A stretch of DNA of 64,000 nt from Hyphomicrobiales bacterium (GCA_021775755.1 JAJFHE010000013.1:48950-112949), one strand, 5' to 3'; shown: positions 20,868-54,994, counted from the first letter of the stretch. Numbers and translations: made by a program. Notes: generated from the letters alone by a model not told the origin.

Positions 20868-22517
20868 TTACGCTGCCGCCTGGCGGCAGTAGCAGGAGGC
20901 CTTGATGACGACCTCGGCACGGGCGGCGGCGAGGTCGAGGCGCTGTTTGATGATCGGCGCTTCGACGGTTTCGCCGCGGCGCGCGAGGCATTCGTGCAGA
21001 CCGTGCAGGCTCCAGACGTTTTCGGGGTGCTGACATGCCCGCGACAGTGAACCGTCGAGGCCGAGATCGGCGCGGTAGACGGCTTCGGCCTCTTCGGCGC
21101 GATCCTGTTCAAGGAGCAATGCGCCTAACGCGTGGCGCGCCGGTTGCATCCAGCCCCAGGGTTCGTCATAGGGCAGCGAGTCATCGAGCCCGACCGATTT
21201 GCGCAAATGGTCGAACGCCACATCGAAATTGCCGCGCCGGTACTCAAGCTCGCCATTGAGCATTTCGGTCGCGACTTCAAGCAGGTCGTTCACCGTGTTG
21301 TTGTGCACCCGGCGGCTCTTTGGAACGTTTGCCTTCGCTTCGAGGAACGCTTCGCGCTCGCGTTCTGCATCCTCGATATTGCCAAGCGCGGAGTGCGCAA
21401 CGGTCTTGGCGTAGAGGATCATCGCGGTGGTAGCGCAATAGAGTTCGCGGTCCCCGGGCAGATCCTGATCGATGATGTCCTGCCACTTGCCGAAGCGGAT
21501 GAGGACATGCTGCTTCATCGGCAAGTAGCCCTCCAGAAAGTCGGCCATGGGGGGCGAGGGGATCTGCAAGAGCTCTTCCGGCGTCGTGTCGATCAGTTCC
21601 TGCGCGGCTTCGATTGCCGGCGTGTACTGGCCGAGGAACATGGCGCCGTAGATCGCGAAATGATGATCGTGCACGCGATACATCGAATAGACATTCAGGG
21701 CGCCGGCGCGCTCCAGGAACCGGCGGTCGGCGGCAATGGCCTTCTGGTTGTAAACGACGACGTCGCGATAGTGGCCGCACAGGACGTCGATGTGTGTCGG
21801 CATGTGAATGAGATGGCCGGCATCGGGCACCAGATCGCGCAGCTTGTCACCGGCACGCAGGGCACGTTGGGGAAAGGGCGACATTTCCATCAGGTGGACG
21901 TAGAGGTGCAGCAGTCCCGGATGCGACCATGAGGCTTCGATGTCACGCATTGCGGCTTCAAGAATCTCGACCGCTTCCTCGGTACCCGCGCCTTCCGCGA
22001 CGCCGCCGGTCTGCAGATCCCACATTTTCCACGGCGTGCGGTTCATGATCGCCTCTGCGAAGACGGTGGTGATTTCAAGGTCCTGCGGGTGCGCCTTAAA
22101 TACTTCGCGCATCGCGTCTGCATAGTCGTCATTCCACAGCGACATGTCTTCGATCGGATCTCGTGCGGGATAGCGCGCCGGCAAGGCCTCGATCAAGGCA
22201 CGCTCGACCGGCGTGATGCCCTCTACGCAAGCAAGCGCCTGCTCCATGGCATCGTATGCCAGCACCAGCGCTTTTTCCCGGCCAGCCGGGTCATAGAGGT
22301 GCCATGGCAAATTGTAGTTTGGACCAGCCGCGTAGGAGATGCCCCAGTGGGCCATGGCGCAGTCCGGGTCCGCCTCCAGTGCCTTTTGAAAACACTCAAT
22401 CGCTTCGCCGTGGTTATAGGCGTAGGTCCAGTTGAGACCGCGATCGAACCAGAGTTGGGCTTCGGGAGGCTTTGCCGTTATTGGTCGTTTGAATGCACCA
22501 AGATCGTAATAGTCCAT
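20868..22517 (-). CDS. Tetratricopeptide-repeat protein (~550 aa)
   Basis: Start placed at MDYYDLGAFKRP (RBS GGAGG 7 nt upstream) inside ORF 20868..22787; multiple TPR-like helical hairpins (WFDRGLNWTYAYNHGEAIECFQKALEADPDCAMAHWG...). Confidence 0.6.
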   Translation of the reverse strand: MDYYDLGAFKRPITAKPPEAQLWFDRGLNWTYAYNHGEAIECFQKALEADPDCAMAHWGISYAAGPNYNLPWHLYDPAGREKALVLAYDAMEQALACVEGITPVERALIEALPARYPARDPIEDMSLWNDDYADAMREVFKAHPQDLEITTVFAEAIMNRTPWKMWDLQTGGVAEGAGTEEAVEILEAAMRDIEASWSHPGLLHLYVHLMEMSPFPQRALRAGDKLRDLVPDAGHLIHMPTHIDVLCGHYRDVVVYNQKAIAADRRFLERAGALNVYSMYRVHDHHFAIYGAMFLGQYTPAIEAAQELIDTTPEELLQIPSPPMADFLEGYLPMKQHVLIRFGKWQDIIDQDLPGDRELYCATTAMILYAKTVAHSALGNIEDAEREREAFLEAKANVPKSRRVHNNTVNDLLEVATEMLNGELEYRRGNFDVAFDHLRKSVGLDDSLPYDEPWGWMQPARHALGALLLEQDRAEEAEAVYRADLGLDGSLSRACQHPENVWSLHGLHECLARRGETVEAPIIKQRLDLAAARAEVVIKASCYCRQAAA

Positions 22518-22680
22518 GAGGCCTCCTGCGATGGGTCGTGCGCCCGGCAATCGGGTACCGCCAAGTCTGACAGATCGTGCGATCTCACGGAACCCTTCGG
22601 GTATTCCCAGACTCGGCTCGACACCGCTCACCTGTATTCCTAGTCTGCGACCCCCGGGCAGCCGGCAAGGACGGAGCGGT

Positions 22681-22902
22681 ATGTGGTCGAAAAATGCACT
22701 GACTGAACGATTGAACCTGGACTGGCCAATCCTGCAGGCGCCGATGGGGGAACTGACGACGCCCGCGCTGGCCGCCGCCGTCGCCAATGCGGGCGGTGTT
22801 GGCGGCCTGGGAATGTGGGGATTTTCGGGTGAAGAGGCCGAGCGGCGTGTCGCCGGTTTTCGTCAGCAGAGCGGGGGATGTCTTAACGTCAATGCTGAGT
22901 AA
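22681..22902 (+). pseudogene. Truncated nitronate monooxygenase (NMO) N-terminal fragment, ~73 codons
   Basis: MWSKNALTERLNLDWPILQAPMGELTTPALAAAVANAGGVGGLGMWGF = canonical NMO N-terminus; frame terminates at 22902 exactly where GC content collapses. Confidence 0.6.
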
Positions 22903-23151
22903 CTCATATGTTCCTTTTTGCGATTGAGTGCATTGGACGGCAGTCGTATTACCTCTTGGCCAAAGACAGTAAACGCCGAACACCCGAGAAATATATCCGT
23001 ATACGGATGTACACGGCATTAGAATTCAAATAAAAGTGAAATGTAGAATGGTTCTCTTGAGTTAATTTATTTGATTTAGCGCTGCTTTCTCGCAATCATA
23101 ATATCTGTTGATACATTGTTGATTGTAAAAATTTGGAAAGGCAGAACGTTT

Positions 23152-24627
23152 ATGGCCATATCAGACATTCACGATCAAATGGAGCAGGCCTGCCAAGATC
23201 AGTTTGGCTTCGGTGTTCGGTATGTTTTTCTTCTGGAATCATTTGCGTATTCAATAAGTCAGATGATTGCGCTTGGCGTACATCAAAATTGGCCAACCAC
23301 CCGAAAAGAAATATTTCTGAGCTTTGACGTAGACCCGGCTAATGTCGCTCTCGCAGAAAACGTTGCGACCTCGAATTTCGATGTTGACGCAAAGTATGAT
23401 GTAATCCTTCATCTCCCCAACGTTCCAACCGACGTGATCACACAATACACTGTGCAGTTTAGTGGTGGAACGGCAACCGTCGGTATCGACCCCACCATTG
23501 ACAACAAACTGTCACTTAACTTGGCTGATCGAGGTATCTATAACTGGAAAGCTCAGAGTAGACCATCCGACTTTCTTGACAAAATTAAAGCCGCCGGGTT
23601 TGTTGACGACGATGGCAATCCAGATGAACAGGAATTTCTGAGATTTGAGTTCGCTCTATTTACTTTCCAGCCAGACTATTTCTTGAGCGGCCTTTTAGAT
23701 CTTATCCAGTTCCCAGTTGTGCGGGAAGGTCTGAAGACCTTCCGCCTTGGATCTCCATTGAATATAACATTTACTCCTGACTATATTGCAGTGCATTCTG
23801 AAAATATTGAGTACGAAGATAGGCCTTGCACTTTTGGAATATCTTCAGCATCGCAAATATCGGTTCTGGTATCAGATGAGGAGATCAAGAAAAACACAAA
23901 TACCGTGTTTTATTCTGAAGAAATGGAGAATGTTGCAGTTACATTTGATGAAAAACTCGATGAAATGAGAACATTTATAAATGAAGTAAATGTAAATATA
24001 GGTCCATTTGGAGAATATCCAATTGTGTATTACTATCGGAAAAATATTTTGTATGATTACACTTTTGGAAAAGTGAAACCTTCCGTTACTTATTCGGACA
24101 GGAATCGCTTTGGACCATTTAGGTGGTACTATGCGATTACTGCCGCACTGTCCCACCTAGCAATTGCATTTCAACAAATCTCTCCGACAACGGCAAAATT
24201 AACACTGGATGTTCCGCTCGAAATGTTCGGGCAAGCCGGTGCCAGCATCCGCCTAGGCTGTGTTACTTACAATGTACTGAATGTGGCGTGTGAAGGGTCG
24301 GTGAATCCACTAACTGTTGAGGCAGAGGGTGGGGTAAATATGAACACACATGAGGTGTTCTTGTCGACCAAGCTGGCCAACGCCAATCCGCGACTCAGAT
24401 GGAGTACAGGTTTCGGGTTTCCTTTTGATCAGATTGCGACGAAATTAATCAATTGGATATTGAGGAAGGAATTTCGTAAGTTCATTGGCCGGCCTACGGA
24501 TATCCTACGAGTACCGCTCGCTGATATATCCGATGTCGCTATATCCTCGGACCTTCAGTTTGGCGCCCTGGGGTCTGATGCAAAAACTGATTCACTGTTA
24601 ATCGGTTTGCATTTGGACCGGGGCTAA
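23152..24627 (+). CDS. AT-rich orphan protein of unknown function (491 aa), horizontally acquired
   Basis: Uninterrupted 1.5 kb ORF in ~40% GC DNA in a ~63% GC genome; ATG 23152 has GGAAAGG RBS; no signal peptide, TM helix or recognisable catalytic motif. Confidence 0.65.
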   Translation: MAISDIHDQMEQACQDQFGFGVRYVFLLESFAYSISQMIALGVHQNWPTTRKEIFLSFDVDPANVALAENVATSNFDVDAKYDVILHLPNVPTDVITQYTVQFSGGTATVGIDPTIDNKLSLNLADRGIYNWKAQSRPSDFLDKIKAAGFVDDDGNPDEQEFLRFEFALFTFQPDYFLSGLLDLIQFPVVREGLKTFRLGSPLNITFTPDYIAVHSENIEYEDRPCTFGISSASQISVLVSDEEIKKNTNTVFYSEEMENVAVTFDEKLDEMRTFINEVNVNIGPFGEYPIVYYYRKNILYDYTFGKVKPSVTYSDRNRFGPFRWYYAITAALSHLAIAFQQISPTTAKLTLDVPLEMFGQAGASIRLGCVTYNVLNVACEGSVNPLTVEAEGGVNMNTHEVFLSTKLANANPRLRWSTGFGFPFDQIATKLINWILRKEFRKFIGRPTDILRVPLADISDVAISSDLQFGALGSDAKTDSLLIGLHLDRG

Positions 24628-24717
24628 CTTTCAGGCCTCGGAGTTAGTTAGGGTCAAAACCCAATCAAAGTGTTGAATTAAAGTAGCAAATCAGATTCAA
24701 AGCCTGCAATCAACGGA

Positions 24718-24945
24718 TTGAAGGCTTATATGGCTCGTTTGTTCTGGCTTTCAGATGCCCAATGGGCTGTCATTGAACCGCATCTGCCCAAAAACCAGCC
24801 GGGCGCACGGCGCGTCGATGACCGGCGTGTGATCTCCGGGATCATTCATGTCTTCAAGACGGGTTGCCGCTGGTGCGATTGTGCCGATGAGTACGTCCAT
24901 CGACAGCACCTATATCAAGGCACACCGCTCGGCCCATGGCGGTAA
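24718..24945 (+). pseudogene. IS5-family transposase orfA with internal deletion/frameshift
   Basis: Conserved N-terminus then frame divergence (CADEYVHRQHLYQ... vs expected continuation found in another frame). Confidence 0.6.
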
Positions 24946-24951
24946 AGGGGG

Positions 24952-25377
24952 GCGAAAACGCAGGCTATCGGCCCCTCGCGCGGCGGACAAACAACCAAAA
25001 TCCATGCCCTGACAGATGTCATCGGACGCCCCTTCGCCTTCACGCTCACCCCAGGCAACGTCTCAGACACAAGCGCCGCACCCGTTCTGCTGACGGCTTT
25101 GCAGGGGGCACGTTATGTCCTTGGCGATAAGGGATATGATGCTGATGCGCTTCGAAAAATGCTACGGGCTTCGAACACGGTTCCCGTCATACCCGGCCGG
25201 CGCAATCGCAAACGAACAATCGTGTATGACAAGCGTCGATACCGTGACCGTCATCTCATCGAAAACGCCTGCTGCCGCCTCAAAGACTTCCGCCGCGTCG
25301 CAACCCGTTATGACAAACTCGCCAGGATCTTCCTGTCAGCTGTCGCACTGGCAACCCTCGTCGCTTCCTGGATATGA
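24952..25377 (+). CDS. IS5-family transposase orfB (DDE domain portion)
   Basis: GDKGYD...IENACCRLKDFRRVATRYDKLARIF motif. Confidence 0.6.
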   Translation, partial: AKTQAIGPSRGGQTTKIHALTDVIGRPFAFTLTPGNVSDTSAAPVLLTALQGARYVLGDKGYDADALRKMLRASNTVPVIPGRRNRKRTIVYDKRRYRDRHLIENACCRLKDFRRVATRYDKLARIFLSAVALATLVASWI

Positions 25378-25398
25378 TTGAGTCTGAACCCTAACGGT

Positions 25399-26118
25399 TC
25401 ACTCAAGCTCATATGCATGTGTGCGGATCACACCGCCGAACTGTTCAACTTCGCACAGTATCCGTTCGCGTTTCGGCGCGAGGTTGAAAGGCGGGCGCGT
25501 CAGCACCACGCCGCTCCCGGAGTGGAGCCGGATTGACGGGCCGATAGGCTTGTCCACGTTCGCCGGAAAGTCATCGCCCGACGGCAAGTGTTCCGTGACC
25601 AGGAGATGCTGGAAAGTGCCCCGGAGTTTGCTGACAAATCGTATGATGTCATCGTTGGGTAAATGCTGCAGCACCTGCCGAACAAGCGCGACATCGCCGC
25701 CGGGCAGTTCGTTTTTGACCATGTCCAGGACGCGAAAACTCAGGTTTGCCTGCCGGTACAAGGTTCGATTTTCATCGATCAGGCCGGCGACCAGATCGCA
25801 GGCAAGATATGAAGACGAAAATTCTACGAGTTGTGCACCAACATTGAAGTCGCCGCAGCCGAGATCGACGACGTCGGGCTTCTTGCCGAGCACCCTGATA
25901 AATTCCTGCACCGCAGTCACATAGGTGTCGACGATCGCCGGGTCGTGGGAGCCACCTCCGGAGAAATACTCTCTGTTGTCGGTGTGAGCAGGGCCCCAGG
26001 CGTCATCGCGATAGATTTTCTCGAATACCTGCCGGCTGTTCAAACCGGAATAACCTGCCTCACGGCGAAACAGGCGGTTTAATTTCCGGCTTGCAAAAGC
26101 TTTGAGGCGGTCAGGCAT
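25399..26118 (-). CDS. Class I SAM-dependent methyltransferase
   Basis: VVDLGCGDFNVG motif I, acidic motif II ACDL, motif IV LRQVLQHL; start placed at MPDRLKAF inside ORF 25399..26268. Confidence 0.6.
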   Translation of the reverse strand: MPDRLKAFASRKLNRLFRREAGYSGLNSRQVFEKIYRDDAWGPAHTDNREYFSGGGSHDPAIVDTYVTAVQEFIRVLGKKPDVVDLGCGDFNVGAQLVEFSSSYLACDLVAGLIDENRTLYRQANLSFRVLDMVKNELPGGDVALVRQVLQHLPNDDIIRFVSKLRGTFQHLLVTEHLPSGDDFPANVDKPIGPSIRLHSGSGVVLTRPPFNLAPKRERILCEVEQFGGVIRTHAYELE

Positions 26119-26587
26119 CGGCGGATTGACTGTTCGTTTGGGCAATTTTCCCACCAAGGTTTCGGCCGGTCTGCATGTGCGCTGGCGCATTCGCGTGGTG
26201 AGCACGCGTGTTGACATCGCAGCAAGTGTCACCTGTCGGGTTTTATGGATTGGCGGTTCGAAGCACAATGCCCGAACTCGATAATTTCAAGAGAAATAGA
26301 TTGCCTGACCGGGCTCTCTGACGGCGAAACCCGATGCGCTTTCATGATTGTTTCTCAGCCCGCACAACGCGTGTCTGGAATGCACTGTCTTCCCCGCGAA
26401 GGATGTCTTGATGTGATGAGAATGCCATTGAAAATCTTCGCCCATACTCTTTGCGTGCAAAGTAAAATGAACTGATTTCAGGGGGATTCAACCGAACAAT
26501 GTAGTTGCGAGGCGCGTTCCCCTATGGAACATTGAGAACGGGCAATGAGTACAGTATGGGGATTAAATTGAGCATCATTGTCGCGAA

Positions 26588-26864
26588 GTGCAGCCAAGAG
26601 CAACGAGCTTGGTGCTGGCGTCGGCCGCCCTGTTTGCAGTGCTGTTGTATGTGCTTGACCAGCGCATCAAACATTGGCGGTTGATGCCATCTTATCTGCT
26701 GGCGACAATCATCATTTTCTATGCGGTCCCGTCCGTAACCGGCACATCTATCACGATGGCCGAAAGGTTGGGGCCCGCGCAAGGGCAGCATTCAGGGGTT
26801 CAGGCAATTGCTGCACGGATCTGGCTGTCCAGTGAGTTAGTCGTCCGAATGGAGCGCAGCTTAA
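26588..26864 (+). pseudogene. N-terminal two-TM membrane segment, probably the frameshifted 5' part of the downstream coiled-coil gene
   Basis: LVLASAALFAVLLYVL and YLLATIIIFYAVPSV hydrophobic helices in frame 2; coiled-coil repeats continue in frame 0 immediately after a TAA at 26862; tandem ACAGATACAGAC at the junction. Confidence 0.35.
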
Positions 26865-27419
26865 GCAAGGTACACGAAGATCAATACAGATACAGACGAG
26901 CTACAGGCCGAACAGACCGAAATCCGGCATCTGAAAGACACGGTTGTCGCGCTGCGGACAAAGATGGAGTCTCTGCAGTTCGACGCCCAGGAAAATGTGC
27001 AGCGTGCTGTTGCCGACAGCAACGATGAGATTATACAGCTTCGCGAGACGGTCAGCGCCTTGCGCGAGGAGTTGGATGATCTAAACCACGAAAAAACCCG
27101 TGCCGTGCAGGAGGTTCTCGCGAGCCATCGCGACGAAATTGAACAGCTCACAAACACCGCACAAGCGCTGCGCGACGAACTGGACAACCTGAACCACGAG
27201 AAGAACACGGCGGTCCAGGAGATGTTGCAGCAAAGCCGTGAGGAAACGGGGCAGCTGCGCGAAACCGCCCAGGCCGTTCGAGATGAGTTGGATGCCGTCA
27301 AGTTCAGCTATGAGGGCAGGATTGAAGAGTTAGAGCGTACGGCGCGGGAGGACCGCAGGCAGTTGCACGAAACGATCACCAAGCTGAGGGAGGAACTGGA
27401 GGGGAAACATGGCAAGTGA
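26865..27419 (+). CDS. Coiled-coil repeat protein (three ~38-aa repeats EIxQLxxTAQALRDELDxLNHEKxxAVQE), translationally coupled to downstream cyclase
   Basis: Repeat-rich heptad sequence; first ATG only at 26964 although repeat-like coding starts right after stop at 26862; stop overlaps start of 27409 gene by 11 nt. Confidence 0.5.
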   Translation, partial: ARYTKINTDTDELQAEQTEIRHLKDTVVALRTKMESLQFDAQENVQRAVADSNDEIIQLRETVSALREELDDLNHEKTRAVQEVLASHRDEIEQLTNTAQALRDELDNLNHEKNTAVQEMLQQSREETGQLRETAQAVRDELDAVKFSYEGRIEELERTAREDRRQLHETITKLREELEGKHGK

Positions 27420-29706
27420 CGTGCTGGACGACCCGGCCAAGATACAATCCAAGCGTTTGGCGGAGACACGCAAGAGCCTGCGAAAGGCAGAAATGCTGCT
27501 GGAAGCTTCGCGCAAAATTGCGTCGTTCGATAACCTGGACGATGCGCTGGAGGCGCTTGTCGAGCTTATCTCGAAGGAATTGGACGCCGAACGCAGCAGC
27601 CTGTTTCTGAACGATACCCTGACCGGGGAGCTTTACTCGCGCATTGCGCAGAAAACCCTGTCGCGTGAAATCCGTATGTTGAACAACGTTGGAATCGCCG
27701 GTGCGGTTTTCCAAAGCGGCACCGGTGAAATCATTCCCGACCCCTATGCGGACGCACGCTTCAATTCAGATGTCGATGAGCAAACCGGTTTCACCACCCG
27801 GTCCATCGTTTGTGCGCCGGTGAAAACGGCGGCGGGTGAAGTGATCGGTGTTACCCAGGCACTGAACAAGAAAAAGGGGAAATTCGGACAAGACGATCTG
27901 GAGCTTCTCGAAGCGATTGCGGCGCAAGCCGCCGTAACCCTGCAGAGCAAGCAGTTTGTTGAGCGGATGGAGAAGAACCGCGCACAGGAGATTGAGTTCC
28001 TCAACATTGTTTCAGACGTCACATCCGAACTGGAACTTGGCAGCTTGCTCACCAAAGTCATGGGTGAGGCGACGCGCATGCTGAATGCTGAGCGCTCGAC
28101 CCTGTTTCTCAACGATGAAAAGACGAACGAGCTGTTTTCGCGTGTAGCCATGGGCGATGCATTGGGCGAGATCCGGCTGCCCAATCATTTGGGCATAGCG
28201 GGCGCGGTCTTCACGTCGGGACAGACGGTCAGCATTCCATATGCCTATGCGGACCTTCGGTTCAATCCGGCATTCGACAAGCAGACCGGGTTCTTCACCC
28301 GCTCCATCCTGTGTGTTCCGGTGACGAACAAAGACGGCAAGATGATCGGCGTCACGCAGGTTCTGAACAAGAAAACCGGTTCGTTCACGGACGACGATGA
28401 GGCGCGGCTTCGGGCCTTTACCGCCCAGGTCTCCATTGCTCTGGAAAACGCCAAATTGTTCGAAGATGTCCAGAGCATGAAAAACTACAATGAGAGCATG
28501 CTGGAGAGCATGTCGAACGGCGTCATCACGATGGACGAGGAAGGAAAAATCGTCACCTGCAACGGCGCCGGCATGCGCATCATGAACGTGGAACCGGCCG
28601 ACATTCTGGGCAAGCCGGCAGTCGAGTTCTTCGTAAACAAAAACGCATGGCTGCCGGACCGCATCAAAAAGGTCGAGGAACGCGGGGAAGCGGACGTGCT
28701 CATGGACGTTGAACTGGAGTTCGGCGGCGAAACAATTTCGGCCAACATCAACGTGCTGCCTCTCCTTGGCGAGAAGGCGAAGAAGCTCGGTTCGATGGTA
28801 ATGATCGAAGATATTTCATCCGAAAAACGGATGAAGTCGACCATGTCCCGCTACATCGATCCAGGCATTGCCGACCAGCTTTTGGCAGGCAGCGATGCGG
28901 AGAACTTTCTGGGTGGAAAAAGCAGCGAAATCACGGTGCTTTTCTCCGATGTTCGCAGCTTCACAACTCTAACCGAGTCGCTGGGCGCGCAAGGCACGGT
29001 GGAGATGTTGAACGAGTATTTCACCATCATGGTCGACTGCATTACCCGTGAGGGCGGCATGCTCGACAAGTTCATCGGCGACGCCATCATGGCGGGCTTC
29101 GGCATCCCGATATCCTATGACGACGATGAGGACCGCGCTGTCCGGGCGGCCATCGCCATGATTGTGGAACTTTGGGAGTGGAACAAGCACCGCGAGGCAC
29201 AAAACAAGCTGGCGATCGACCACGGTGTGGGGCTTAACACGGGGCTTGTCGTCTCCGGTAACATCGGTTCGCCGAAACGCATGGACTATACGATGATAGG
29301 CGATGGAGTGAACCTTGCCGCACGGCTGGAGTCGGCTTGCAAGCAATACTCGGCCCGCATTTTGATCAGCGAATTCACGCGCGCGAAGCTGAAGGGGACT
29401 TACCGGTTGCGCGACGTTGACATGGTGGTGGTGAAGGGCAAGACCGAGCCGGTCAAGATTTTTGAAGTGCTCGATTATCACACGCCGGAAACCTTTCCAA
29501 ACCTGATGGACGGCGTTGGATATTTCAACGATGCGATCCAGCATTATCGCGCCGGTGAGTGGGATAAATCCGTTGCAAAGTTTTCCGAGGCCCTGACGGC
29601 TAATCCGGGCGACGAACTGGTAAATACCTATATCGCCCGCTGCGAACAGCTGCGGGCTAGTCCGCCAAAAGACTGGGACGGTGTCTGGGTTATGACTTCG
29701 AAATAA
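27409..29706 (+). CDS. GAF-GAF-PAS sensor class III adenylate/guanylate cyclase with C-terminal TPR-like tail
   Basis: Two GAF-like blocks (…FLNDTLTGELYSR…GIAGAVFQSG…CAPV and …FLNDEKTNELFSR…GIAGAVFTSG…CVPV), PAS (MLESMSNGVITMDEEGKIVTCN), cyclase motifs (ITVLFSDVRSFTTL…KFIGDAIMAGFG…GLNTGLVVSGNIGS…DYTMIGDGVNLAARLE). Confidence 0.8.
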   Translation: MASDVLDDPAKIQSKRLAETRKSLRKAEMLLEASRKIASFDNLDDALEALVELISKELDAERSSLFLNDTLTGELYSRIAQKTLSREIRMLNNVGIAGAVFQSGTGEIIPDPYADARFNSDVDEQTGFTTRSIVCAPVKTAAGEVIGVTQALNKKKGKFGQDDLELLEAIAAQAAVTLQSKQFVERMEKNRAQEIEFLNIVSDVTSELELGSLLTKVMGEATRMLNAERSTLFLNDEKTNELFSRVAMGDALGEIRLPNHLGIAGAVFTSGQTVSIPYAYADLRFNPAFDKQTGFFTRSILCVPVTNKDGKMIGVTQVLNKKTGSFTDDDEARLRAFTAQVSIALENAKLFEDVQSMKNYNESMLESMSNGVITMDEEGKIVTCNGAGMRIMNVEPADILGKPAVEFFVNKNAWLPDRIKKVEERGEADVLMDVELEFGGETISANINVLPLLGEKAKKLGSMVMIEDISSEKRMKSTMSRYIDPGIADQLLAGSDAENFLGGKSSEITVLFSDVRSFTTLTESLGAQGTVEMLNEYFTIMVDCITREGGMLDKFIGDAIMAGFGIPISYDDDEDRAVRAAIAMIVELWEWNKHREAQNKLAIDHGVGLNTGLVVSGNIGSPKRMDYTMIGDGVNLAARLESACKQYSARILISEFTRAKLKGTYRLRDVDMVVVKGKTEPVKIFEVLDYHTPETFPNLMDGVGYFNDAIQHYRAGEWDKSVAKFSEALTANPGDELVNTYIARCEQLRASPPKDWDGVWVMTSK

Positions 29707-29751
29707 GGCCCGCAACGGCAATGTCGACTTCTTCGGTTTTTCGGAACCGCT

Positions 29752-30519
29752 CTAGAAGGCGATGTTTGAAACGAGCCGGCAGGCCTTGCATTGGAAATCG
29801 AATATCGGAGCAATCGGTTCGTCCAGTAGCCATGCGCCGCCGCAGGACGGGCAGGGGCGTTTGCTTTCATTGTCGTGTGTCCGTCGTGTGCCGCTTGCGC
29901 GGTAGAGATAGTAATACGTTGGAGTGCCGGTGCGTTCCTCGATCTCCCGGCAAAGCTCACGCCCTCGCCGCGCCAGCGAGCTCTCATGATCCGACATCTG
30001 CGCAATGCCGAACCGTTCGCCGGTACGGCAGTTCATCTGCAGTGTGTCACAGGCCTTGTAATCGTCGTTCCAGATCAACAGTTCGTAGTGTTCATCGTGG
30101 TCCGACGCCGGCAGGGAGTAAAGCGGGATGACGCCGAAGCAGTCGAGGCACTTTACCGGCGGTGCCGACGACAGGTAGTCCGTCTTCAGGACAAAGGCGG
30201 AGCTTTTTTTGCAGGCGCAAGGGCACCAGCCTTCGACGTCCCTTCCCTTGAGTACAAGAGAGGGCTTCCCGACGCCTTGTGATTTCAGTTCCCGAAGCGC
30301 CTTTTTTACCCACTTGTTTGCATGACGTTTGTCGAGTGAGCGTTTCTCGGGAATGGTCAGCCATGCGCGCAACCGGCCTTTGGATGTGAGATGAAGGTCG
30401 GCGAAGGTGTTTGCCTGGCCACTTTTTACCCAGGCTCCCAGCAGGGTGTATATGGCTTGCTCGGCCTTTTTCCGACCGCCCTTTTCGGGAATGTTGAATG
30501 ACACTTGCGCGAGATACAT
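29752..30519 (-). CDS. Cys-rich Zn-ribbon protein (possibly DUF2310-like)
   Basis: 255 aa with paired Cys clusters (CPCAC, CLDC, CPSCGGAW, CKAC); basic N-terminal half; family assignment from memory only. Confidence 0.45.
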   Translation of the reverse strand: MYLAQVSFNIPEKGGRKKAEQAIYTLLGAWVKSGQANTFADLHLTSKGRLRAWLTIPEKRSLDKRHANKWVKKALRELKSQGVGKPSLVLKGRDVEGWCPCACKKSSAFVLKTDYLSSAPPVKCLDCFGVIPLYSLPASDHDEHYELLIWNDDYKACDTLQMNCRTGERFGIAQMSDHESSLARRGRELCREIEERTGTPTYYYLYRASGTRRTHDNESKRPCPSCGGAWLLDEPIAPIFDFQCKACRLVSNIAF

Positions 30520-30839
30520 ATCGATCCTTAACCCGTTGGCGGCGTTTGTCTTTTCATCTTAGCGCCTGAACGGTCCCAATGCGAGTGTTAGGCAGGCAGC
30601 CGCCCGCCGCCGGTGGCTGGGTGGGCGCGTGGTTGATTGTGACATTATTGCATCACTAAAATGCTGCGCCGCACCATTGCTGCCCGGCGCCGCTTTTTCG
30701 CCCCATTCCGGCTTATAACGCCGCACCCCGGATCGACTACCGGTCCGAGCCCCAGCGGGTGGAGTTCTGTATGCTCCCCTGGCGCGGCGGCCCTCTGGGT
30801 CGTTTTCCGTGTGCCGTGGGCCGGACGGGTGCGGTTTGG

Positions 30840-30912
30840 GTGCGCATAGCTCAATTGGTAGAGCTCTGGCCTCTAAAGCCAGTGGGTGCGGGTTCGATTC
30901 CCGCTGCTACTA
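30840..30912 (+). tRNA. tRNA-like element (tRNA-Trp-like body, anticodon loop CUCUAAA = CUA; acceptor stem not base-paired) - probable tRNA pseudogene / integration-site remnant
   Basis: Canonical D-arm TAGCTCAATTGGTAGAGC, anticodon stem CTGGC/GCCAG, T-arm GCGGGTTCGATTCCCGC; but 5' GTGCGCA vs 3' TGCTACT cannot pair; no CCA. Confidence 0.45.
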
Positions 30913-30993
30913 CGCGATATGCCCAGAGGTTGGGCGACAGATTGCAAATCTGTTGGCAGATAGCTTGTGAGGTTCGATTCCTCAATCGCTCCA
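30913..30993 (+). tRNA. Second tRNA-like element abutting the first (GCA anticodon, 14-nt variable region, T-arm, 3' ...TCCA; acceptor pairs only 5/7)
   Basis: D-arm GCCCAGAGGTTGGGC, anticodon arm ACAGA-TTGCAAA-TCTGT, T-arm TGAGGTTCGATTCCTCA, 3' ATCGCTCCA; 5' ACGCGAT mismatched at first two pairs. Confidence 0.35.
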
Positions 30994-31425
30994 ATTCGGC
31001 CTTCCATGCCGAACCAGATTGGAAATCTGGCGATATCAATTGGGCGCCCCGGAGTGTGCCCGGCAATGCACCGGCAGAAATTTTCCGCAAGTGCGGAGGG
31101 TGTGGCGGGTGCGGCGCCGCGAGCGGGACGCTCAGCGTCCGTGCATGAGGGGGCAACCGCGACACGGCGCCCAGGCGCCGGCTCGATGCCGTATCCTGCC
31201 CGAGCACGAAGTTTCGTGTTCAGGCGGAGCGGAGGAGCGCCGGTGCCCCGGCCCATTTGTCCCGGGCGTCCCCGGCACGGATCCGCGGTCCGTTCGTTCA
31301 CGGCCGCTCCGGGGCGCCTCTATGAGGCGCCGATGCGCAATGTGACGATGAGTGAAACTGAAACTTGAGAAAGGAAGACAAACGCCATGCGAGAGCGCTG
31401 ACGATTTGTGTGAAAGGAGAAGAAC

Positions 31426-32575
31426 AATGACCCAAGTAAGAAACAGACTGATGACTGCCCGCATCACCGTTCCGGTGAACGAGCGCGCGATCGTGCTCAG
31501 AGACGGGAAGATCGTCGACATTCTCCGGCCGGGCCGGCATAGAGTGCGCAAGGGATCCACGGGTGTGGATGCCGTTGTCTGCAATATCCTGCACCCCAAA
31601 TTCGTCAGCGACCTGGATCAGGTCCTGTTCCGTGATCACGAAGACCTGGCACGCGAGCACCTCACCGAGGTGCGCACGGGGGCCGATGAAGTCGCGGTGA
31701 TCTTCCGCGATGGCCGCCCCTTCGATGTGCTCGGCACCGATGGCCGCGTCGTTCTGTTCACCGATGCGGGACCGTTCACGGTTGAACGGTTCGACATCGC
31801 GGAAACGCCGGAAGTGCCCGCGCGTCTTGTGAAGAACGCGGCGCGCCTCGACGGCGCGGAGCGGATCATCCGGCGGTTTGTCGTGGACGAAGGCCAGACG
31901 GGCCTGCTGTTCGTTAACGGCGTTTTCGACCGGCGGATTGAGCCTGGTCTGCACGCCTTCTTCGACGGCAACCGGACGGTCGCCGTACGCAACATAGATC
32001 TCCGGCACCGTGCGCTTGAGGTGAACGGTCAGGAGGTGCTGACGAAGGACCGGGTGACCATCCGCGTCAATCTCGTCGCCGAGTTCCGGGTCGTCGATCC
32101 GGTCAAGGCGGTGAGCGTGACGACTGACTTCGCCGAAGCCCTGCACAGAGCGCTGCAGCTTGCCTTCCGCAAGTCCCTCGGCACCAAGACGCTCGATGCA
32201 ATCCTTGCAGAAAAGGTGACCGTCGACGCCGAGGCCGCCGAAAGGGTGCGCACGGAGATGGCGAAGATCGGCATCGAGGTGGCGGAGATCGCGGTCAAGG
32301 ACGTGATTCTGCCGGGCGAGATGCGCGACATCCTGAACCGGGTGGTGCAGGCGGAGAAGGAGGCTCAGGCCAATGTCATCCGCCGGCGCGAAGAGACCGC
32401 GGCAACGCGTTCCCTGCTGAACACGGCCAAGATCATGGCGGAGAACCCGATCATGCTGCGGCTGAAGGAGCTGGAGGCGCTTGAAACGATCGCCGGGCGT
32501 GTCGACCACCTGGCCATCCACAACGGCACGCAGGGCCTGATGCAGGACCTTGTGAACCTGCGCGAGACGGCGTGA
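31426..32575 (+). CDS. SPFH/band-7 domain protein (slipin-like)
   Basis: ATG 31426 with AAAGGAGAAG RBS, in frame of ORF 31352..32575; band-7 core (…RVNLVAEFRVVDPVKAV…QLAFRKSLGTKTLDAILAEKVTVDAEAAERVR…) and C-terminal coiled coil. Confidence 0.7.
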
Positions 32576-35756: not shown

Positions 35757-36025
35757 GCGGCGGAGTAAATTGCCTGCGCCGACCAAACGATGCCCAGACC
35801 CCCGGTATCTCGGGAGTGATGATGGCAAATTCCGCCAATTGGTGTCCGCCCGCTCATACCCCGGCCGCGGACGCTGATGAAACCTGCACAAACAGTAATT
35901 GCATGAGCGACATTCACAAATGACAGTTGCGTGATGTCCGCCGCTCGCCGGTATTGACTTTCCGGTTCGCCTGTCGGAGATGTGCGCGCCTCATGACGCC
36001 GTTTGAAAGTCCGGGAAGCCGATCA

Positions 36026-36628
36026 ATGCTCGAAGTGCGAAAAATCGTTCACCACCTTGAAGATGTTCTCATCGAAGGCGGCAAGCCGGCAGATCCTCCG
36101 TGGCGCATGGTTGCCGTTGCCGCCGTCGTCTCAAACCCGTGGGCGGGTCAGGGCTTCGTTGAGGACCTGCGGTCAACGATACTGGCCGAAGCGCCGGGCC
36201 TTGGAGACATCATGGTGCCCCGCTTGCTCGAGCTTGCCGGCGGCGCGGACGCCATCGAAGCCTACGGCAAGGCAGCGGTGGTCGGCGTGAATGGCGAGAT
36301 CGAACACGCCTCGGGGCTCATTCACACGTTGCGCTTCGGCAACAAGTACCGCGAGTCCGTCGATGGCAAAACGTTTCTGGCGTTCTCGAACAAACGTGCC
36401 GGGCCCGGCACGGCGATCACCATACCGATGATGCACAAGCACGATGAAGGCTTCCGCTCGCACTATCTGACGGTCGAGTTCCACATCATCGATGCGCCGG
36501 GCGCGGACGAGATTGTCGTGGCGCTCGGCGCCGCCTGCAACGGCCGGCCGCACCATCGTATCGGCGACCGTTATCAGGATATGGCGGACATGCAGACCGA
36601 CCAGACGGGCAGGGCGATCAAAGAGTAA
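36026..36628 (+). CDS. Amino-acid-synthesis family protein (DUF1185)
   Basis: MLEVRKIVHHLEDVLIEGGKPADPPWRMVAVAAVVSNPWAGQGFVEDL matches this family; ATG 36026 inside ORF 35927..36628. Confidence 0.55.
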   Translation: MLEVRKIVHHLEDVLIEGGKPADPPWRMVAVAAVVSNPWAGQGFVEDLRSTILAEAPGLGDIMVPRLLELAGGADAIEAYGKAAVVGVNGEIEHASGLIHTLRFGNKYRESVDGKTFLAFSNKRAGPGTAITIPMMHKHDEGFRSHYLTVEFHIIDAPGADEIVVALGAACNGRPHHRIGDRYQDMADMQTDQTGRAIKE

Positions 36629-54116: not shown

Positions 54117-54419
54117 CGGTCGCCTCCGGTGTGAATATTGCGCTCACTATCTATTCGACTGGCATATGTGTCCAATAACAAACAAGTCAGGGCGAAACGT
54201 GCCGTAGCGCCGCCGATTTGCGATGCCAATGTTCTCCGATCCGATGCCGGGCTGAGTGTGTGGCTGGATAGGCTGGTTTGTCAGCACAATACCGTTGTGG
54301 ACAGTCAGCGTGTGATCGGATGTGTTACTTGTTCGATCCGGGTTTGATGACTTGGGCGACGCCGCGCTTAAGGGGCGGCATTGGTCGGCGAAATCGAATT
54401 CAATGATGCTCACAAGTGC

Positions 54420-54560
54420 TAAGGTTTCACAGCCGGTGCATTGCCCGAGCAGCACCGCTCCGATGGTTGAAACGTCGAAGAGAGCCGCAAAGAACGGCAC
54501 CACGGCCAGAATAACCACTGCACTGGCGACGGTCACGCGTCCCTTCCGCCACGCCCTTCC
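54420..54560 (-). pseudogene. Remnant fragment of a DMT/EamA transporter gene
   Basis: ~80% nt identity over ~100 nt to 52280-52440 of the intact DMT gene (VVPFFAALF vs AVPFFAALL). Confidence 0.4.
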
Positions 54561-54994
54561 GCCGCGTTTACAGCGTGCTTCGACACCGCATACCATTTGG
54601 CAGGGAACCCTTGTGAAGCCAAGGGGAAGGGCCAGTCCATGTCCAGATTCAAACTTTGCTCCGGCGCTGCCGCTATTGCCTTCTGTGCGGGAATGCTCAT
54701 GTACCCGGGGCGATGCGAATGCCGCATCAATTTGCGTTGCGGGGTTTGCCGGAGACAAGAAAAAGGAAGAGGTCTGCAGCTGCCATCCCGCATCCGACCT
54801 TTGCAAGTGGGAACGCACCTGCCAGGACAGCACTTTCTATAGCGGCGATCATGCTGAAGAGACGATCGACGCCTGGAAGAGCAACGGTTATGAGGTTTGG
54901 ATTGTCAGAAAGACAAACAGCGCCACCCGGCAACTCTGCCAGCTAGACTGATTGCCCATCGCCGATAGTTCCTGCCTTAGAGAGGACCGGGTTA

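What the first reader, a model, noticed from the sequence alone, without database searches (positions are those of the whole stretch)
22903..30839. ~8 kb mosaic insertion that truncates an NMO gene and ends at degenerate tRNA-like elements
A nitronate-monooxygenase gene is cut after ~73 codons at 22902, exactly where GC drops from ~63% to ~40%. The inserted block carries an AT-rich orphan gene, a degraded IS5-family element, a methyltransferase, a membrane/coiled-coil plus GAF-PAS cyclase pair and a Cys-rich Zn-ribbon protein. It stops at two tRNA-like remnants (30840..30993). Composition is heterogeneous (~40% GC then ~55-58%), implying at least two acquisition events. The rest of the NMO gene is not present downstream, so the insertion was accompanied by deletion.
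Basis: seen in the sequence. Interest (0 to 1): 0.6.

Follow-up and report, generated by a model that had tools for sequence, protein, structure and literature searches.

The report
Small IS-linked insert; conserved tRNA-like RNAs
About 2.5 kb of foreign DNA (a lipid-binding-type gene plus a dead insertion sequence) has replaced most of a nitronate monooxygenase gene, but the rest of the proposed 8-kb island looks native, and the "tRNA remnants" at its end are a conserved pair of tRNA-like RNAs that precede a stomatin-like (Band-7) gene in every related locus examined.

Summary
The sequence features are real. The NMO gene stops after 73 codons; homology ends at 22893 and the rest is absent from all 64 kb. 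GC falls to about 0.40, and an independent assembly reproduces both junctions.

The 8-kb island is not supported. Only 22894-25394 is compositionally foreign: an AT-rich 491-aa gene (GC3 0.42, codon z -6.3) and an IS5-family remnant with both inverted repeats and a 107-bp internal deletion. The methyltransferase, coiled-coil, GAF-PAS cyclase and DUF2310 genes have host-like GC3 (0.65-0.72) and codon usage. Their lower total GC comes from codon positions 1 and 2.

The two tRNA-like elements are neither remnants nor an integration site. [quoted passage not shown] Same-strand tRNA-like modules lie upstream of slipin homologues in 63 of 63 metagenomic loci. Covariation is strong (19 of 31 pairs compensatory). 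A covariance model built without the window hits 30840-30992 at 82.8 bits.

The AT-rich gene is predicted to have a BPI/LBP/P47-like double-TULIP fold, and a homologue lies beside a relaxase.

Verdict: an ordinary small IS-associated replacement, next to a previously predicted but unvalidated ncRNA cassette.

The parts
22681..22902 (+). 5' fragment (73 codons) of a nitronate monooxygenase (NMO) gene. Homology to intact NMOs ends at 22893, followed by 2 foreign codons and a stop.
   Evidence: Pfam NMO 4.2e-08, profile positions 2-41 of 331. tblastn of a full NMO matches only residues 1-71 = 22681-22893. blastn similarity to two NMO loci ends at 22892.
22894..24647 (.). AT-rich foreign DNA (GC 0.38-0.47) that starts inside the NMO gene and ends at the left end of the IS remnant.
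   Evidence: GC profile. The dinucleotide signature exceeds all background windows only at 22.5-25 kb. The junction is reproduced in independent contig L170.
23152..24627 (+). 491-aa cargo gene with no sequence-family hit. Predicted two-domain TULIP (BPI/LBP/P47-like) lipid-binding fold. Member of a rare family.
   Evidence: GC3 0.42 and codon z -6.3. 74 relatives among 1.84 billion representatives. AF2 pLDDT 88, pTM 0.84. Foldseek PDB hits: LBP 4m4d 9e-11, BPI 1bp1 2e-09, P47 5wix 6e-08. A 49%-identical homologue lies next to relaxase + NikA-like genes.
24648..25394 (+). Decayed IS5-family insertion sequence. Both terminal inverted repeats are present (TTAGGGTCAAAAC... / ...GTCTGAACCCTAA). 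The transposase reading frame is broken by a 107-bp internal deletion.
   Evidence: DUF4096 and DDE_Tnp_1_2 hits; NF033580 IS5 family. About 75% nucleotide identity to ~853-bp IS5 copies on rhizobial plasmids. The alignment to the NT-26 plasmid copy shows the 107-nt gap.
25399..26268 (-). Class-I SAM methyltransferase, apparently full-length. Its stop codon is 4 nt from the IS end. Composition is host-like.
   Evidence: Methyltransf_25/12/11 hits. PHROG methyltransferase 1.5e-13, with about 60 residues left after the match for 58 remaining profile positions. GC3 0.65, z -1.4.
26964..27419 (+). 151-aa coiled-coil protein, overlapped at its start by a 146-aa ORF (26588-27028) that carries an N-terminal hydrophobic helix. 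Composition is host-like.
   Evidence: Only coiled-coil-type weak hits. GC3 0.72. Kyte-Doolittle maximum 2.29 for ORF 26588.
27409..29706 (+). GAF-GAF-PAS class III adenylate/guanylate cyclase (765 aa). Composition is host-like.
   Evidence: Pfam GAF 1.9e-38, PAS 8e-12, Guanylate_cyc 5.7e-25. GC3 0.71, z -0.3; the low total GC comes from GC1 0.57 and GC2 0.38.
29752..30519 (-). DUF2310 Zn-ribbon protein (255 aa). Composition is host-like.
   Evidence: Pfam DUF2310 5.6e-74. GC3 0.68, z -1.2.
30688..30839 (+). Start of the conserved slipin leader: a promoter-like CTTGCG-N17-(C/T)TATAA motif (-10 at about 30713-30718) and a conserved, apparently structured segment of about 120 nt that precedes the tRNA-like modules.
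   Evidence: 27-locus alignment of upstream regions. Seen directly in L086 and L087. Structure was not tested.
30840..30911 (+). b7a-tRNA module 1: a cloverleaf with loop triplet CUA. Its acceptor stem has a C4 bulge or mismatch and there is no 3' ACCA. The family consensus has a 7-bp stem plus ACCA; the window, L086 and L087 all lack the ACCA.
   Evidence: Rfam tRNA 58.3 bits. Alignment A3 and covariation. Model R1 hit.
30914..30993 (+). b7a-tRNA module 2: a cloverleaf with loop triplet GCA, a 5-bp acceptor stem (short acceptor stems are apparent in other family members by inspection) and a short extra arm shared with L086.
   Evidence: Rfam tRNA 34 bits and tRNA-Sec 36.5 bits, below its threshold of 47. 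ARAGORN Cys-GCA. A3 and covariation. R1 full-length hit at 30840-30992, 82.8 bits.
30994..31426 (+). Rest of the conserved leader: hairpins, a GGGYTCGGGGNCNGGC-like motif, then a Shine-Dalgarno-like site plus a mini-uORF (ATG CGA GAG CGC TGA, 31387-31401) 25 nt before the slipin ATG. No plus-strand terminator-like site was found.
   Evidence: Alignment. Mini-uORF census. Terminator scan.
31427..32575 (+). Slipin-family SPFH/Band-7 protein (382 aa) with no predicted transmembrane helix. It is the protein partner of the tRNA-like pair.
   Evidence: Pfam Band_7 7.4e-29. Homologues are named 'slipin family protein' by their sources. Kyte-Doolittle maximum 1.13. GC3 0.79.

Best explanation
Two unrelated things sit side by side.

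(1) A small IS-associated replacement.
- Shown: foreign AT-rich DNA carrying one gene, a predicted BPI/LBP/P47-like lipid-binding protein of a rare family. One homologue of this family lies next to a relaxase. This DNA now abuts codon 71 of the NMO gene on the left and a decayed IS5-family element on the right.
- Shown: the remaining two thirds of the NMO gene are gone.
- Inferred: a mobile element or a fragment of one inserted in or near NMO. An IS5 copy then mediated, or marked the end of, a deletion that removed the rest of that element, the NMO 3' part and whatever lay between it and the methyltransferase gene. The IS later lost 107 bp of its transposase gene and is now inert.
- Inferred from composition: the methyltransferase, coiled-coil/cyclase and DUF2310 genes to the right are resident host genes, or at least long ameliorated, not part of the insertion.

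(2) A slipin cassette.
- Shown: the two tRNA-like elements are the tandem 'band 7-associated tRNA' modules of the slipin gene at 31427.
- Inferred: they lie in a roughly 700-nt conserved leader that starts at a promoter-like site near 30690-30718 and are probably co-transcribed with the slipin gene.
- Shown: their cloverleaf helices are held by selection while the anticodon loops drift in sequence and length. They act as structured tRNA mimics, not decoders.
- Inferred, following the published proposal for b7a-tRNA and for YrlA: RNase P/Z-type processing releases them as ncRNA partners of the soluble SPFH protein, in an RNA repair or surveillance role.
For: Foreign block:
- GC profile.
- GC3 0.42 and codon z -6.3 for the orphan only, against -0.3 to -1.4 for the other four block genes.
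- The dinucleotide signature exceeds background only at 22.5-25 kb.
- NMO homology ends at 22893 and the rest is absent.
- IS5 remnant with both inverted repeats and a 107-bp deletion.
- Junctions are identical in an independent contig.
- Orphan fold and a relaxase neighbour of a homologue.

Slipin cassette:
- tRNA-like genes sit at the same place and on the same strand in L086 and L087, whose slipins are 71% and 65% identical.
- ARAGORN finds a same-strand tRNA-like gene within 900 nt upstream in 55 of 63 metagenomic slipin loci. Model R1 finds one in the other 8.
- 24-sequence alignment: 31 pairs, 19 with compensatory changes, 97.6% of cells paired against 36-52% for slid controls, 0 of 500 shuffles as good.
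- R1, built from 21 loci that exclude the window and its two nearest relatives, hits 30840-30992 full length at 82.8 bits, E about 1e-23, and nothing else in the window with E below 0.5 (one 7.3-bit partial match at E 0.57).
- Loop triplets differ between orthologous loci (CUA/GCA, GAA/?, ?/AUA, AAU, AUC, ACG, and 6- or 8-nt loops).
- RtcB (3) and Tpt1 (1) occur among 55 downstream neighbours, as in the published description cited in bioRxiv 10.1101/312249.
- AA_synth downstream of the slipin is syntenic in the window, L086 and L087.
Against: - No close relative exists in the searched collections. The window's proteins are singletons at 90% identity. The best flanking-gene matches are 71-81% at protein level with no synteny on the island side. 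The ancestral NMO locus and the order of events were therefore not observed.
- Host-like codon usage does not exclude an old, ameliorated acquisition or a donor of similar composition. The four genes at 25.4-30.5 kb all lie slightly on the low side (z -0.3 to -1.4) and are accessory-type. The neighbour upstream of the slipin leader differs in L086 and L087.
- The TA on both IS flanks says nothing about whether the flanks were ever contiguous.
- No expression or processing data exist for the tRNA-like RNAs. The window's module 1 has a flawed acceptor stem and lacks the ACCA seen in most family members.
Confidence: 0.7

Rival explanations
1. The whole of 22903-30839 is a mosaic genomic island, acquired in at least two events, whose right end is marked by remnants of a tRNA integration target.
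For: - NMO is truncated exactly at the composition break.
- The block's genes are accessory-type.
- Total GC of 0.55-0.58 is below the 0.61 background.
- The genes upstream of the slipin leader differ in L086 and L087.
Against: - GC3, codon usage and dinucleotide signature of 25.4-30.8 kb are within the host range.
- There is no integrase and no repeat of a tRNA 3' end.
- The block lies 5' of the tRNA-like genes, whereas tRNA-targeting islands lie at the 3' end (established knowledge).
- The tRNA-like pair belongs to the slipin cassette in 63 of 63 loci.
Confidence: 0.15
2. The two elements are working decoder tRNAs: an amber suppressor (CUA) and a selenocysteine-like tRNA-Cys (GCA), comparable to allo-tRNAs or selC*-type tRNAs.
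For: - Cloverleaf folds, with Rfam tRNA 58 and 34 bits.
- tRNA-Sec model 36.5 bits for module 2.
- ARAGORN calls Cys-GCA.
Against: - Orthologous positions in other loci carry unrelated triplets and anticodon loops of 6 or 8 nt.
- In the window, module 1 has a bulged acceptor stem and no CCA.
- Module 2 has a 5-bp acceptor stem, as other family members appear to have.
- The tRNA-Sec score is below its threshold of 47.
- Position and strand relative to the slipin gene are fixed.
Confidence: 0.04
3. The NMO|AT-rich junction is an assembly chimera, so there is no real truncation.
For: The abrupt composition change at a single base is what a chimeric join would also look like.
Against: A separately assembled Logan contig of run SRR15505515 is 100% identical over 21011-25247. 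It crosses both junctions and includes the host-like TPR gene.
Confidence: 0.02
4. No IS-mediated deletion occurred. The AT-rich DNA replaced the NMO 3' part in a single illegitimate-recombination event, and the IS5 element later inserted by chance 20 nt after the cargo gene's stop codon.
For: - TA on both IS flanks is compatible with a simple insertion.
- No second IS end or repeat lies at the left junction.
Against: The switch from foreign to host-like composition coincides with the IS itself: AT-rich up to 24647, host-like from 25395. That would be a coincidence if the IS were unrelated to the rearrangement.
Confidence: 0.2

Closest known systems
[quoted passage not shown] Predicted by Burroughs & Aravind, Nucleic Acids Res 2016 (recalled from memory; paper not held in the library). 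Described in bioRxiv 10.1101/312249.
   Same: - tRNA-like ncRNA gene directly upstream of a Band-7 protein gene, on the same strand.
- Strong resemblance to real tRNA.
- Occasional linkage to RtcB (3 of 55 loci here).
- Never validated experimentally.
   Different: - In the window, as in most of the 55 loci scanned, the neighbouring gene downstream of the slipin is not an RNA ligase.
- In this clade the RNA is a tandem pair inside a roughly 700-nt conserved leader with a mini-uORF. I could not check whether the original paper describes these features.
- The window copy lacks the ACCA and has a bulged acceptor stem.
YrlA / bacterial Y RNAs with Rsr (Ro60)
   Same: - A tRNA-mimicking ncRNA encoded beside its protein partner.
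- A proposed scaffold or cofactor role in RNA repair or decay.
- A weak YrlA hit spans the module 1 T arm and the module 2 D arm (17.4 bits, E 0.92).
   Different: - The score is far below the YrlA threshold of 69.
- No Ro/TROVE family matched any of the window ORFs scanned between 22.7 and 36.6 kb.
- There are complete cloverleafs rather than a tRNA-like domain closed by a Ro-binding stem.
tRNA-gene-targeted genomic islands (integrase-mediated)
   Same: A block of accessory genes lies next to tRNA-like genes, and a gene is disrupted at the other end.
   Different: - No integrase.
- No direct repeat of the tRNA 3' end.
- The block lies on the 5' side.
- Most of the block is compositionally native.
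- The tRNA-like genes belong to another cassette.
IS5-family insertion sequences (NCBIfam NF033580 type), for example the ~853-bp copy on Pseudorhizobium banfieldiae NT-26 plasmid p1
   Same: About 75% nucleotide identity over the element, matching terminal inverted repeats, and a DUF4096 + DDE transposase.
   Different: The 107-bp internal deletion breaks the transposase frame. The window holds a single copy.
TULIP superfamily: BPI/LBP, and Clostridium botulinum P47 (Foldseek hits); OrfX2 only as a weak hit
   Same: Predicted two-barrel tubular lipid-binding fold, about 490 aa. Foldseek probability 1.0 to 4m4d, 1bp1 and 5wix. No signal peptide is evident by inspection of the N-terminus.
   Different: - 8-11% sequence identity and TM-scores of only 0.27-0.35 over the full length.
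- No Pfam, NCBIfam, PADLOC, PHROG or PDB-sequence hit.
- No OrfX-type or toxin family matched any neighbouring ORF scanned.
- One homologue lies beside a relaxase.

Membership tests
b7a-tRNA / Band-7 cassette | tRNA-like gene immediately upstream of a Band-7/SPFH gene, on the same strand | tested here: met
   The modules at 30840-30993 (+) end 433 nt before the slipin ATG at 31427 (+). The same arrangement occurs in 63 of 63 loci with at least 700 nt of upstream sequence.
b7a-tRNA / Band-7 cassette | Sequence and structure fit a profile of the family built from other loci | tested here: met
   Covariance model R1 (21 loci, window excluded) gives 82.8 bits, E 1.5e-23, positions 1-148 of 148, at 30840-30992.
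b7a-tRNA / Band-7 cassette | Cloverleaf helices maintained by compensatory change | tested here: met
   19 of 31 pairs have double changes. 97.6% of cells are paired against 36-52% for slid partners. 0 of 500 shuffles reach the observed values.
b7a-tRNA / Band-7 cassette | Linkage to the RtcB RNA ligase or other RNA-repair genes | tested here: not met
   No RtcB family matched the window ORFs scanned between 22.7 and 36.6 kb. In the family, RtcB is the downstream neighbour in 3 of 55 loci and Tpt1 in 1 of 55. The linkage is therefore occasional, not defining.
b7a-tRNA / Band-7 cassette | The RNA is expressed and associates with the Band-7 protein | not testable with these tools
   No transcript or binding data. 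The cited preprint states that the RNA has not been validated.
tRNA-targeted genomic island | Integrase/recombinase gene at one end | tested here: not met
   No integrase family among the block's ORFs.
tRNA-targeted genomic island | Direct repeat of the tRNA 3' end at the distal boundary | tested here: not met
   No such repeat was found by the repeat finder over 20-34 kb or by blastn-short of both modules against the window.
tRNA-targeted genomic island | Foreign composition across the whole block | tested here: not met
   Only 22.9-25.4 kb deviates.
tRNA-targeted genomic island | Absent from close relatives, which carry an intact target | not testable with these tools
   No relative closer than about 71-81% protein identity was found.
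IS5 family insertion sequence | DDE transposase of the IS5 type | tested here: met
   NF033580 hits: 2e-16 for the N-terminal part and 2.8e-25 for the C-terminal part. Both are fragments scoring below the full-length cut-off.
IS5 family insertion sequence | Terminal inverted repeats | tested here: met
   TTAGGGTCAAAACCCAATCA at 24648 and its imperfect inverse ending at 25394. Both align to the ends of the NT-26 plasmid copy.
IS5 family insertion sequence | Intact transposase reading frame (an active element) | tested here: not met
   A 107-nt gap relative to the intact copy. The ORF is split into 24730-24945 and 25099-25377.
TULIP (BPI/LBP/P47) lipid-binding proteins | Two tandem TULIP barrels | tested here: met
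   AF2 model with pLDDT 88. Foldseek E 9e-11 to 6e-08, probability 1.0, to LBP, BPI and P47 over the full length. This rests on a predicted structure only.
TULIP (BPI/LBP/P47) lipid-binding proteins | Detectable sequence-family membership | tested here: not met
   No Pfam, NCBIfam, PADLOC or PHROG hit and no PDB sequence hit.
Canonical decoding tRNA | 7-bp acceptor stem, 7-nt anticodon loop, and an anticodon conserved among orthologues | tested here: not met
   In the window, module 1 has a bulge and module 2 a 5-bp stem. Orthologous loops differ in triplet and in length.

The most novel reading that the evidence does not exclude
The roughly 700-nt region from the promoter-like site (~30690) to the slipin ATG may be one conserved functional RNA unit. 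It would comprise a 5' structured domain, two tRNA mimics with free-drifting anticodon loops, conserved hairpins, and a Shine-Dalgarno site plus a start-stop-type mini-uORF just before the slipin start. On this reading the mimics are cut out by tRNA-processing enzymes to become partners of a soluble, non-membrane SPFH protein, and the mini-uORF couples slipin translation to that processing or to ribosome status. This would go beyond the published one-line prediction of a 'b7a-tRNA' and would define a widespread, Rfam-absent RNA-protein system.
Probability: 0.3. Interest if true: 0.6.

Novelty: new member of a known kind. Interest (0 to 1): 0.35.

Why it matters
For genome annotation, an apparent 8-kb island shrinks to a 2.5-kb IS-linked replacement. 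A total-GC dip caused by amino-acid composition should not be read as horizontal transfer. GC3 and codon usage separate the two cases here.

For RNA biology, the window gives a clean example of the b7a-tRNA/Band-7 cassette. The cassette was predicted in 2016, matches no Rfam family other than generic tRNA, and has not been tested. tRNA finders report it as odd tRNAs ('suppressor', 'Cys', 'undetermined').

The comparative set assembled here comprises 63 of 63 loci, covariation statistics, a working covariance model, a conserved leader and a mini-uORF. It could seed an Rfam family and guide experiments on what a soluble SPFH protein does with tRNA mimics.

The AT-rich cargo adds a rare bacterial BPI/P47-like protein family, one homologue of which lies beside a relaxase.

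Tried and rejected
1. Close relatives. A scan of species-representative genomes with the flanking TPR protein gave 80 loci at 70-81% identity. None shares anything to the right of the TPR gene. Contigs carrying near NMO homologues (L083, L084) match only the NMO 5' part. The ancestral locus could not be reconstructed.
2. Exact-protein look-ups returned only short Logan contigs of one run. Cluster look-up shows singletons.
3. Searches for att-like or flanking repeats, a second IS end, or inverted repeats at the left junction found nothing beyond chance.
4. Allo-tRNA, selC*-type tRNA and amber-suppressor readings of the two elements were considered because of the CUA/GCA triplets and the tRNA-Sec hit. 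They were rejected once orthologous loci showed unrelated triplets and variable loop lengths.
5. A tmRNA or permuted tmRNA reading was considered. ARAGORN, which also scans for tmRNA genes, reported none.
6. A defence-system reading of the block was considered. PADLOC gave only generic class III cyclase (PycC) and coiled-coil matches, and nothing for the orphan, the methyltransferase or DUF2310.
7. The promoter/terminator scan was uninformative, at shuffle level.
8. The original Burroughs & Aravind paper could not be retrieved. What it says is taken from memory and from the preprint that cites it.

Full report
**Observation**

The window's background GC is about 0.61. At 22.9 kb it falls to 0.38-0.47 until about 24.6 kb, then stays at 0.50-0.59 up to 30.8 kb.

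The ORF at 22681-22902 encodes 73 residues that match the first 40 positions of Pfam NMO. A full-length NMO from a metagenomic contig aligns only to residues 1-71 (22681-22893). No other part of the 64-kb window matches the remaining two thirds. Nucleotide similarity to two NMO loci also ends at 22892.

The block holds the following:
- a 491-aa ORF without any family hit;
- two pieces of an IS5-family transposase;
- a class-I methyltransferase;
- a coiled-coil ORF;
- a GAF-GAF-PAS class III cyclase;
- a DUF2310 Zn-ribbon protein.

Rfam's tRNA model hits 30840-30911 (58.3 bits) and 30914-30990 (34 bits). ARAGORN calls only the second, as Cys-GCA.

A contig assembled independently by Logan from run SRR15505515 is 100% identical to window 21011-25247. 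It crosses both the NMO|AT-rich junction and the AT-rich|IS junction.

**How far the foreign DNA extends**

Total GC misleads here. I compared 43 long ORFs of the window.
- Most have GC3 between 0.61 and 0.79.
- The orphan has GC3 0.42.
- The methyltransferase, coiled-coil, cyclase and DUF2310 genes have GC3 0.65, 0.72, 0.71 and 0.68.
- The cyclase's low total GC comes from GC1 0.57 and GC2 0.38, that is, from its amino-acid composition.

A synonymous-codon log-likelihood against the other genes gives z = -6.3 for the orphan and -0.3 to -1.4 for the other four. This is within the spread of flanking genes.

A dinucleotide-signature scan in 2-kb windows exceeds the maximum of all outside windows only between 22.5 and 25 kb.

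So only 22894 to about 25394 is demonstrably foreign. The claim of a second acquisition, based on 55-58% GC, has no compositional support. An old, ameliorated transfer cannot be excluded.

**The IS remnant and the likely history**

Positions 24648-25394 are about 75% identical to ~853-bp IS5-family elements on rhizobial plasmids. Alignment to the copy on the Pseudorhizobium banfieldiae NT-26 plasmid shows both terminal inverted repeats and a 107-nt internal gap that splits the transposase frame. No second end of this IS occurs in the window.

The IS lies 20 nt after the orphan's stop codon and 4 nt from the stop codon of the convergent methyltransferase gene. That gene appears complete at its C-terminus. 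The change from foreign to host-like DNA therefore coincides with the IS.

The simplest history is inferred, not observed:
1. A mobile element, or part of one, entered at or near NMO codon 71.
2. An IS5 copy inside or beside it mediated a deletion. This removed the remainder of the element, the NMO 3' part and any DNA up to the methyltransferase gene.
3. The IS then decayed.

A one-step illegitimate replacement followed by a chance IS insertion is a weaker alternative. No integrase, att-like repeat or inverted repeat marks the left junction.

**The cargo gene**

The 491-aa protein has no Pfam, NCBIfam, PADLOC, PHROG or PDB-sequence match. An exhaustive HMMER search of 1.84 billion cluster representatives found 74 relatives, mostly 450-520 aa.

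An AlphaFold2 model from a 37-sequence alignment is confident (pLDDT 88, pTM 0.84). Foldseek against the PDB puts LBP (4m4d, 9e-11), BPI (1bp1, 2e-09) and Clostridium botulinum P47 (5wix, 6e-08) on top. Single-domain TULIP proteins follow. The protein is therefore predicted to be a two-barrel TULIP lipid-binding protein.

A 49%-identical homologue lies between a LuxR-type regulator gene and relaxase plus NikA-like genes. That fits carriage on a mobilizable element.

**The tRNA-like pair**

In the window, module 1 has loop triplet CUA, a bulged acceptor stem and no CCA. Module 2 has triplet GCA, a 5-bp acceptor stem and a short extra arm. It scores 36.5 bits on the tRNA-Sec model, below the threshold of 47. 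Taken alone they look like decayed tRNAs or exotic suppressors.

Comparison changes that reading. The downstream gene (31427-32575) encodes a slipin-family SPFH/Band-7 protein without a predicted membrane helix. Its nearest homologues are 71% and 65% identical and lie on 723-kb and 767-kb metagenomic contigs. Both have tRNA-like genes at the same distance and strand, with different upstream neighbours.

A metagenome scan with a slipin alignment returned 80 loci, selected only by protein similarity.
- ARAGORN finds a same-strand tRNA-like gene within 900 nt upstream in 55 of the 63 loci that have at least 700 nt of upstream sequence.
- The reported anticodons are heterogeneous and often impossible for real decoders: AAU, AUC, AUU, AUA, UUA 'stop', and 2- or 4-nt 'anticodons'.
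- All 27 loci whose slipin is at least 50% identical carry a module 1 followed directly by a second module. In three of them (L091, L093, L113) the second module is truncated.

Structure is under selection. In a 24-sequence alignment RNAalifold recovers both cloverleafs.
- 19 of 31 pairs show compensatory changes.
- 97.6% of cells are paired, against 36-52% when partners are slid by 1-3 columns.
- No shuffle out of 500 reaches the observed values.

A covariance model built from 21 loci, excluding the window and its two nearest relatives, hits 30840-30992 over its full length at 82.8 bits (E about 1e-23). Nothing else in the window scores with E below 0.5; the only other listed match is a 7.3-bit partial one at E 0.57. 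The same model also finds the upstream element in the eight loci that ARAGORN missed, which makes 63 of 63.

The short acceptor stem of module 2 appears, by inspection of the alignment, to be shared across the family. The missing ACCA of module 1 is shared with L086 and L087.

**Comparison with what is known**

[quoted passage not shown] Burroughs and Aravind predicted it in their 2016 survey of RNA-repair systems. I recall that survey but could not retrieve it.

A preprint on the YrlA structure summarises the prediction: a ncRNA that strongly resembles tRNA, encoded next to a Band-7 protein, often near RtcB, never validated, and possibly redundant with YrlA (bioRxiv 10.1101/312249).

Consistent with this, RtcB is the most frequent identifiable downstream neighbour in my loci (3 of 55), together with Peptidase_S26 (also 3 of 55). 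One locus has Tpt1/KptA. The window itself has no RNA-repair gene nearby. Rfam 15 matched nothing here other than generic tRNA, the sub-threshold tRNA-Sec hit and a chance-level YrlA hit.

The tRNA-like pair thus belongs to the slipin cassette on its right. It does not belong to the gene block on its left and says nothing about an island boundary.

**Things beyond the brief**

In the clade with at least 50% slipin identity, the whole upstream region of about 700 nt is alignable. It contains:
- a CTTGCG-N17-(C/T)TATAA promoter-like motif;
- a conserved 5' segment;
- the two modules;
- hairpins and a G-rich motif;
- a Shine-Dalgarno-like site with a mini-uORF, usually start, one codon, stop, 17-38 nt before the slipin start.

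In the window the mini-uORF is ATG CGA GAG CGC TGA at 31387-31401. No plus-strand terminator-like site separates the modules from the gene, so co-transcription is likely. I could not check whether these details have been published.

**Verdict**

- A real but ordinary 2.5-kb IS-linked replacement truncates the NMO gene.
- The remaining 5.4 kb shows no sign of being foreign.
- The terminal 'tRNA remnants' are a conserved, previously predicted ncRNA pair of the neighbouring slipin cassette.

Interest is modest for the island. It is moderate for the cassette, whose mechanism is still unknown.

Noticed in passing
window 30688-31426 (and L086 9300-10000, L087 9290-10000): The whole ~700-nt region upstream of the slipin gene is alignable across 27 loci. 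It contains a promoter-like CTTGCG-N17-(C/T)TATAA motif, a conserved 5' segment, the two tRNA-like modules, hairpins and a GGGYTCGGGG-type motif. Structure outside the two modules was not tested.
   Followed up: partly
window 31370-31401: A Shine-Dalgarno-like AAAGGAAG is followed by a mini-uORF, ATG CGA GAG CGC TGA, 25 nt before the slipin ATG. In relatives it is usually start, one codon, stop. It was found in 26 of 76 loci against 10.4 expected from shuffles, nearly all in the clade with at least 50% slipin identity.
   Followed up: partly
L133 63-1596; L135 186-2742; L134 824-2535; L158 154-595 (minus strand): Some distant slipin loci are preceded by long arrays of 4-16 ordinary-looking tRNA genes, in addition to the proximal tRNA-like element. 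The slipin cassette may sit at the end of tRNA array units.
   Followed up: no
loci L089-L168, genes downstream of the slipin gene: RtcB is the downstream neighbour in 3 of 55 loci and the RNA 2'-phosphotransferase Tpt1/KptA in 1 of 55. Most loci, including the window, have unrelated neighbours.
   Followed up: partly
L091 1797-1918, L093 2469-2586, L113 1756-1879: In three loci the second module is cut down to little more than a T arm and a short stem (a 'mini' module). Module 1 remains complete.
   Followed up: no
window 26588-27028 and 26964-27419: A 146-aa ORF with an N-terminal hydrophobic helix overlaps the start of the coiled-coil ORF in another frame. This could be a frameshifted membrane-anchored coiled-coil gene or a spurious ORF. 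The 26.0-26.75 kb intergenic stretch has GC 0.50-0.52.
   Followed up: no
window 54147-54833 (-): This 228-aa ORF is the only other codon-usage outlier in the window (z -2.9, GC3 0.61).
   Followed up: no
window ~30630-30635: Two Logan contigs of the same run end and begin here: L001 ends near 30629 and L002 starts at 30635. This lies between DUF2310 and the slipin leader. The cause (coverage, strain variation or a repeat) is unknown.
   Followed up: no
window 35927-36628; L086 16942-17538; L087 12233-12835: An AA_synth (PF06684) gene lies downstream of the slipin gene in the window and in both nearest relatives. It is the only synteny that extends beyond the cassette.
   Followed up: partly
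window 31427-31880: The slipin has an N-terminal extension of about 150 residues before the Band_7 domain. It has no hydrophobic segment, unlike membrane-anchored stomatins. The function of the extension was not examined.
   Followed up: no
L169 1149-2633: The closest contextualised homologue of the AT-rich cargo gene is itself split into 377-aa and 96-aa ORFs. It lies between a LuxR-type regulator gene and relaxase/NikA-like genes.
   Followed up: partly
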